780 nucleotides of DNA from a phage: the sequence record AF056260.1; one strand, given 5' to 3'. Position numbers and translations under genes: made by a program. The notes under the pieces were generated by a model. It was not told the DNA's origin and did not search any database. It was given only the letters and a program-made list of their open reading frames with translations. Below, piece after piece: positions 3-400 of the stretch (its first letter is position 1; each line of letters opens with the position of its first letter).

Positions 3-400
<398 letters not shown>

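What the first reader, a model, noticed from the sequence alone, without database searches (positions are those of the whole stretch)
276..293. Expected catalytic Lys of the Ser-Lys dyad is encoded as Glu
In characterised S74 domains the catalytic dyad is Ser and a Lys five residues downstream (S-D-x-x-x-K). Here the Ser is present (tct, 276-278) but the +5 codon is gag (Glu, 291-293), while the downstream N-I (297-302) is conserved. Either this is a single-base miscall (aag to gag at 291), or the domain keeps chaperone function without autoproteolysis, or it uses a different general base. The flanking bases are unambiguous, which argues mildly against a trivial error, but overall read quality is poor.
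Basis: partly seen in the sequence, partly recalled or inferred. Interest (0 to 1): 0.5.

Follow-up and report, generated by a model that had tools for sequence, protein, structure and literature searches.

The report
Probable read error in BF23 tail-fibre gene
The window is a poor single-pass read of the end of the phage BF23 L-shaped tail-fibre gene, and the "missing" catalytic lysine is one A-to-G difference from the reference genome that is most likely an error in the read or its template, not biology.

Summary
In the frame of the 9-428 ORF, tct (Ser) is at 276-278 and gag (Glu) at 291-293, and the motif register is right (Pfam Peptidase_S74 profile position 1 is the Ser; T5 pb1 has Ser1264 and Lys1269).

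The window is not a new gene. Bases 3-386 match the L-shaped tail-fibre gene of Escherichia phage Bf23 (OR083247) at every called base except 165 and 291, with N at 268 and 371. From 387 on the read degrades, and a dropped G creates the false stop at 426-428.

Bf23, phiP4, SCF, one metagenome contig and two aligned E. coli prophage fibres all encode Lys here. So do 159 of 159 distinct S74 domains that I collected without reference to this column. No sequence with GAG in this context was found in any collection.

The most likely explanation is an error in one low-quality read or its template. One caveat applies. The read's main error type is loss of G after A, which explains 165, 268 and 371 but not 291. 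A real loss-of-function mutation in the sequenced stock or clone therefore remains possible (about 0.15). If real, it should block autocleavage and leave the chaperone masking the fibre tip. Interest is low.

The parts
3..275 (+). Coding sequence for the C-terminal end of the mature L-shaped tail fibre (receptor-binding tip), up to the Thr before the scissile bond. It lies in the frame of the 9-428 ORF.
   Evidence: Identical to Bf23 ltfp (OR083247, L001 890-4687) except at 165 and N268.
273..278 (+). Thr-Ser codons (aca tct). This is the predicted autocleavage site, with Ser 276-278 as the nucleophile.
   Evidence: Pfam S74 profile position 1 aligns to this Ser. It is equivalent to Thr1263-Ser1264 of T5 pb1 (PMC4690869).
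291..293 (+). gag (Glu) where the catalytic Lys codon is expected. It is a single A-to-G difference from Bf23 at base 291.
   Evidence: AAG in Bf23, phiP4 and SCF and in metagenome contig L004. AAA in E. coli prophage fibres. Lys in 159 of 159 distinct S74 domains.
276..650 (+). Coding sequence of the S74 intramolecular chaperone domain, from Ser276 to the gene end at about 640-655. It is readable in frame only to 386; beyond that the frame is broken by read errors.
   Evidence: Alignment to Bf23. Pfam S74 on the Bf23 equivalent gives 51.6 bits. PDB relatives are 8hqz_d (LTF) and 7dc3 (MYRF).
165..165 (+). A where Bf23, phiP4, SCF and the prophage fibres have G (Ile in place of Val). The reference G follows an A, so this fits the read's systematic weak-G artefact.
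268..268 (+). N where the reference has G preceded by A.
371..371 (+). N where the reference has G preceded by A.
387..428 (+). Start of read decay. A G is dropped at 387/388, which shifts the frame and produces a false stop codon at 426-428. In Bf23 the gene continues with ...RTRRGVIAQQIEEIDPTYV...
113..289 (+). Segment 97-98% identical to tail-fibre genes of E. coli prophages. The similarity ends inside the TSDINYK motif, marking a mosaic junction between the fibre tip and the chaperone module.
651..780 (+). Illegible tail of the read. It corresponds to the region downstream of ltfp, including the annotated terminator.

Best explanation
[quoted passage not shown] The gene encodes a fibre whose C-terminal Peptidase_S74 intramolecular chaperone domain helps the trimer fold. 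It then cuts itself off between Thr and Ser using a Ser-Lys dyad, which unmasks the receptor-binding tip. This mechanism is inferred from T5 pb1 and endoNF and was not tested for BF23. The GAG at 291-293 is a one-base A-to-G discrepancy introduced either by base-calling or by a polymerase or cloning error in the sequenced template. The phage gene itself encodes AAG (Lys). The apparent stop at 426-428 is also a read artefact.
For: Identity of the locus:
- Window 3-386 equals Bf23 OR083247 at all called bases but two. The next-best records are 79-82% identical.

Read quality:
- There are Ns at 268 and 371.
- Indels and substitutions rise from 3 per 50 bases at 351-400 to about 20 per 50 bases after 500.
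- A second unique discrepancy at 165 is also contradicted by every relative.

The Lys column:
- Every relative has A at the first codon base: Bf23, phiP4 and SCF, metagenome contig L004 and two aligned E. coli prophage fibres.
- Lys is invariant in 159 of 159 distinct S74 domains. They came from cluster representatives, IMG/VR loci and genome MAGs, and were selected on other parts of the domain. The nucleophile column does vary (145 Ser, 13 Cys, 1 Ala).
- Lys is also present in the solved LTF 8hqz_d and in MYRF 7dc3.

Function of the Lys:
- It is required for cleavage. K592A in MyRF and K772A in MrfA give no cleavage (PMC8326128; PMC3828593).
- Lys1269 activates Ser1264 in T5 pb1.

BF23 virions:
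- They carry three LTFs, and the LTF protein is found in virions (PMC10644984).
Against: Base 291 does not fit the read's dominant error mode. In 3-386 the other three discrepancies are all reference G preceded by A, called as A or N (3 of 21 such G against 0 of 60 other G). Base 291 is the reverse case, a reference A called G, and it is one of only two false G calls in the whole read. The same heptamer CTACAAGA at 88-95 is called correctly. No trace or quality values are available, so a miscall cannot be shown directly. L-shaped fibres are not essential for T5 in the laboratory (PMC4690869) and K-12 hosts lack O-antigen (PMC10644984), so a real mutation would not be strongly counter-selected in a lab stock.
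Confidence: 0.8

Rival explanations
1. The G at 291 is real in the sequenced phage stock, as a spontaneous or induced Lys-to-Glu mutation in the BF23 fibre gene. The dyad would be inactive and the chaperone domain would stay attached and mask the fibre tip. The L-shaped fibres would be present but unable to bind their receptor. This would be tolerated on laboratory K-12 hosts, where these fibres are not needed.
For: A-to-G at 291 is not explained by the systematic weak-G-after-A artefact that accounts for the other discrepancies in the good part of the read. LTFs are not absolutely necessary for T5 and BW25113 lacks O-antigen, so selection is relaxed. Uncleaved pb1(S1264A) still folds but no longer competes for the receptor. 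Lys-to-Ala abolishes cleavage in relatives.
Against: There is only one read. The published Bf23 genome has AAG and is reported to align perfectly with all earlier BF23 fragments, so stocks differ very little. No other sequence with GAG was found in this context. The read has at least one other false substitution in its good part (165).
Confidence: 0.15
2. The Glu is a natural, functional variant. The S74 domain would either act as a chaperone that is never cleaved, or use Glu or another residue as the general base.
For: The nucleophile column does tolerate natural change (Cys in 13 and Ala in 1 of 159 domains), so the active site is not absolutely frozen. Nothing in the window itself excludes this reading.
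Against: None of 159 distinct natural domains lacks the Lys, which puts an upper 95% bound of about 2% on the frequency. The rest of the window is Bf23, which has Lys. A variant that differs from Bf23 by essentially only this radical change at an invariant residue, with no synonymous differences in 383 bases, does not look like natural divergence. Lys-to-Ala mutants do not cleave.
Confidence: 0.03

Closest known systems
L-shaped tail fibre protein of Escherichia phage Bf23 (OR083247, BF23_00150, WLW40739.1)
   Same: Window 3-386 is identical at every called base but two. The gene end and the downstream region are the same.
   Different: Base 165 is A instead of G and base 291 is G instead of A (Lys to Glu). 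There are Ns, and heavy read errors after 386.
T5 pb1 C-terminal intramolecular chaperone (Garcia-Doval et al. 2015, PMC4690869) and the K1F endosialidase CIMCD (Peptidase_S74, PF13884)
   Same: The T-S-D-x-x-x-K motif is at the junction of the fibre tip and the chaperone domain. The downstream GVIAQ motif is also present. The Bf23 domain scores 51.6 bits on PF13884.
   Different: The tip domain differs in sequence. The window as read has Glu at the Lys position. Cleavage has not been tested for BF23.
LTF in PDB 8hqz chain d and MYRF ICA domain 7dc3
   Same: These are sequence-detectable relatives with solved structures, and both have Lys at +5.
   Different: Each shows only limited sequence similarity to the Bf23 domain, and MYRF is a eukaryotic transcription factor.
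Tail-fibre genes of E. coli prophages (for example WP_164699358.1 in strain EC28)
   Same: 97-98% DNA identity to window 113-289, the last roughly 59 residues of the mature fibre. They also carry an S74 domain with the TSDINYK motif.
   Different: The chaperone module diverges immediately after the motif, and the N-terminal part of the fibre is different. They are prophage genes, not T5-like genes.

Membership tests
Peptidase_S74 / C-terminal intramolecular chaperone domain (PF13884) | Sequence match to the family profile above the curated threshold | tested here: met
   The intact Bf23 equivalent scores 51.6 bits against a cut-off of 22. The window's own in-frame fragment scores only 16.4-17.7 bits, because it is cut at 386 by a frameshift error.
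Peptidase_S74 / C-terminal intramolecular chaperone domain (PF13884) | Nucleophile Ser at the N-terminal boundary of the domain (profile position 1), preceded by the end of the fibre or spike | tested here: met
   tct at 276-278, preceded by Thr. Ser in 145 and Cys in 13 of 159 homologues.
Peptidase_S74 / C-terminal intramolecular chaperone domain (PF13884) | Catalytic Lys five residues after the Ser | tested here: not met
   It is not met in the window as read (gag, 291-293). It is met in Bf23 and in 159 of 159 homologues. The failure is attributed to a one-base error in a single read, so membership of the underlying gene is not in doubt.
Peptidase_S74 / C-terminal intramolecular chaperone domain (PF13884) | Position at the C-terminus of a trimeric phage fibre or spike protein | tested here: met
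   These are the last ~137 residues of the 1265-residue Bf23 ltfp product, followed by an annotated terminator.
Peptidase_S74 / C-terminal intramolecular chaperone domain (PF13884) | Autoproteolytic release of the domain after trimer folding | not testable with these tools
   This needs expression followed by SDS-PAGE or mass spectrometry. It has been shown for T5 pb1, endoNF, MyRF and MrfA but not for BF23.
Phage BF23 genome (identity of the source) | Near-100% nucleotide identity over the readable part | tested here: met
   379 of 381 called bases in 3-386 match. The other phage records are 79-82% identical.

The most novel reading that the evidence does not exclude
The G at 291 is real and the Glu is functional. 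BF23-like fibres would then tolerate a Ser-Glu arrangement in the S74 active site, either cleaving with a carboxylate base or operating with a permanently attached chaperone cap. A less radical version is a real loss-of-function Lys-to-Glu mutant in a lab stock (probability about 0.15, interest about 0.25).
Probability: 0.03. Interest if true: 0.55.

Novelty: not a real feature. Interest (0 to 1): 0.08.

Why it matters
As it stands it matters little. It is a warning that a single-pass read should not be used to infer active-site changes. If the substitution were confirmed in a phage stock, it would be a ready-made Lys-to-Glu test of the Ser-Lys dyad in a T5-like fibre. It would also test the idea that the uncleaved chaperone masks the receptor-binding tip. 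The by-products are modestly useful. The Lys is invariant across 159 diverse S74 domains while the nucleophile is Cys in about 8% of them. The cleavage motif also coincides with a recombination junction between the fibre tip and the chaperone module.

Tried and rejected
- Searches for any natural sequence carrying GAG in this context. I used a degenerate pattern with R at base 291. IMG/VR gave no match at all, genome contigs gave none, and metagenome contigs gave one match, which has AAG. The plasmid collection gave no match.
- The search for homologous proteins was of little use here. It returned 1 hit for the Bf23 domain and 8 for a 21-sequence profile.
- The representative search with P0001 was dominated by its N-terminal domain. 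Only 56 domain matches among the 150 listed proteins carried an S74 domain.
A 6-sequence alignment worked.
- One tblastn call failed because the frame was wrong.
- I tested whether 291 could be explained by the read's systematic artefact of G lost after A. It cannot, because the change runs the other way, and the same heptamer is read correctly at 88-95.
- I considered mis-registration of the motif and rejected it.
- I considered the stop at 426-428 as a genuine truncation and rejected it, because a G is dropped at 387/388.
- I did not run structure prediction. It would not distinguish an error from a mutation.

Full report
**What is in the window**

The 780-base window has one long forward ORF, 9-428. 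Its product ends ...[45 protein letters not shown].... Pfam Peptidase_S74 matches this stretch, with profile position 1 on the Ser. The score of 16.4 bits is below the cut-off of 22 only because the domain is cut short in this frame.

**Where the window comes from**

A megablast search against phage genomes gives Escherichia phage Bf23 (OR083247) as the best hit, in the gene annotated "ltfp: L-shaped tail fiber protein". The other Tequintavirus-like records are 79-82% identical. The match lies in the last 700 bases of a 3798-base gene, which is followed by an annotated terminator.

A base-by-base comparison shows that window 3-386 differs from Bf23 at only four positions:

| Position | Window | Bf23 |
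|---|---|---|
| 165 | A | G |
| 268 | N | G |
| 291 | G | A |
| 371 | N | G |

From 387 onward the read falls apart. A G is dropped at 387/388, which shifts the frame and creates the false stop at 426-428. Bf23 continues there with ...KKRTRRGVIAQQIEEIDPTYV.... Discrepancies then climb to about 20 per 50 bases beyond 500. The window is thus a single low-quality read of BF23, or of a virtually identical phage, and not a diverged homologue.

**What the gene does**

This is established for relatives and inferred for BF23. The intact Bf23 C-terminus scores 51.6 bits on PF13884. It has solved sequence relatives in an L-shaped tail fibre (8hqz_d, GTSGIEYKKDV) and in MYRF (7dc3).

[quoted passage not shown] It is cut off at Thr1263-Ser1264 after folding, and Lys1269 activates the Ser. 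The uncleaved S1264A protein folds but no longer competes for the O-antigen receptor, so cleavage is thought to unmask the binding site (PMC4690869). Lys-to-Ala abolishes cleavage in mouse MyRF (K592A; PMC8326128) and in Dictyostelium MrfA (K772A; PMC3828593). BF23 virions carry three L-shaped fibres, and the protein is detected in virions (PMC10644984).

**Is Glu ever found at this column?**

All close relatives have Lys:
- AAG in Bf23, phiP4 and SCF.
- AAG in the only metagenome contig that matches a pattern allowing either A or G at this base.
- AAA in two aligned E. coli prophage fibre genes (of nine matching chromosomes) that share 97-98% identity with window 113-289.

For a wider census I collected S74 domains from three sources. 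These were the 150 best cluster representatives of a whole-library HMMER search, 80 IMG/VR loci, and 5 genome loci found through the RRGVIAQ / IDPxYV motifs, that is, without reference to the Lys. After removing duplicates there are 159 distinct domains. The Lys column is K in 159 of 159. The nucleophile column is S in 145, C in 13 and A in 1. The frequency of natural non-Lys variants is therefore below about 2% (rule of three), and none was seen.

**Error or mutation?**

The read has a clear systematic fault. Within 3-386 the three other discrepancies are all a reference G that follows an A, called as A or N (3 of 21 such G, against 0 of 60 G after other bases). The same pattern recurs at 398, 421, 424, 427 and 494, and G is over-represented among the errors up to position 500 (Fisher p about 0.001). 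From my own knowledge, weak G after A is a familiar feature of older dye-terminator chemistry.

This fault explains 165, 268 and 371. It does not explain 291, where an A is read as G. That is one of only two false G calls in the whole read, and the identical heptamer CTACAAGA is read correctly at 88-95. So 291 is either a sporadic miscall, a copy error in the template (A-to-G is the commonest polymerase error, again from my own knowledge), or a real change in the sequenced stock.

Several points weigh against a real change. The published genome is reported to align perfectly with all earlier BF23 fragments. The window shows no synonymous difference from Bf23 over 383 bases. No GAG variant was found anywhere. 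In favour of keeping the possibility open, L-shaped fibres are not essential for T5 in the laboratory and K-12 hosts lack O-antigen, so such a mutation would be tolerated.

I put about 0.8 on an artefact of the read or its template, 0.15 on a real loss-of-function mutation, and about 0.03 on a functional natural variant.

**Comparison with what is known, and verdict**

The underlying gene is a known member of a known family, the BF23 ltfp gene with a Peptidase_S74 chaperone domain. The only unusual thing is one base in one poor read. If that base were real, the prediction is a fibre that folds but keeps its chaperone cap and cannot bind its receptor. That would be a modestly interesting natural mutant and not a new mechanism. 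Interest is low, and the finding is best filed as not a real feature until it is resequenced.

**Seen in passing**

The last roughly 59 codons of the mature fibre are shared almost exactly with E. coli prophage fibres, and the similarity stops inside the TSDINYK motif. The cleavage motif therefore doubles as a module junction. Separately, about 8% of the S74 domains surveyed have Cys in place of the Ser nucleophile.

Noticed in passing
window 113-289; L090 2501-2679; L091 2501-2676: This stretch, the last ~59 codons of the mature fibre tip, is 97-98% identical to tail-fibre genes in 9 E. coli chromosomes (prophages). Similarity ends abruptly inside the TSDINYK cleavage motif, after which the chaperone modules diverge. 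This is a mosaic junction exactly at the boundary between the fibre tip and the S74 domain.
   Followed up: partly
L039, L046-L048, L080-L082, L088 (match at about 301 onward); P0105, P0068, P0073, P0145, P0090, P0137; P0058: In 13 of 159 distinct S74 domains the nucleophile position is Cys instead of Ser, and in one (P0058) it is Ala. The Lys is invariant throughout. A Cys-Lys variant of the dyad appears to be fairly common.
   Followed up: no
window 165: A where Bf23, phiP4, SCF and the prophage fibres all have G (Ile in place of Val). The reference G follows an A, which fits the read's systematic G-dropout, so this is almost certainly an error.
   Followed up: yes
window 387-428: A G is dropped at 387/388, which shifts the frame. 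The stop codon at 426-428 and the ORF end are therefore artefacts. The true gene runs on to about 640-655.
   Followed up: yes
window 268, 371, 398, 421, 424, 427, 494: There is a systematic error pattern: a reference G preceded by A is called N or A, or is dropped. This suggests weak G-after-A peaks in a dye-terminator trace.
   Followed up: yes
window 1-2: The first two bases (cc) do not match Bf23 (AG). They may be a vector or primer remnant, or noise at the start of the read.
   Followed up: no
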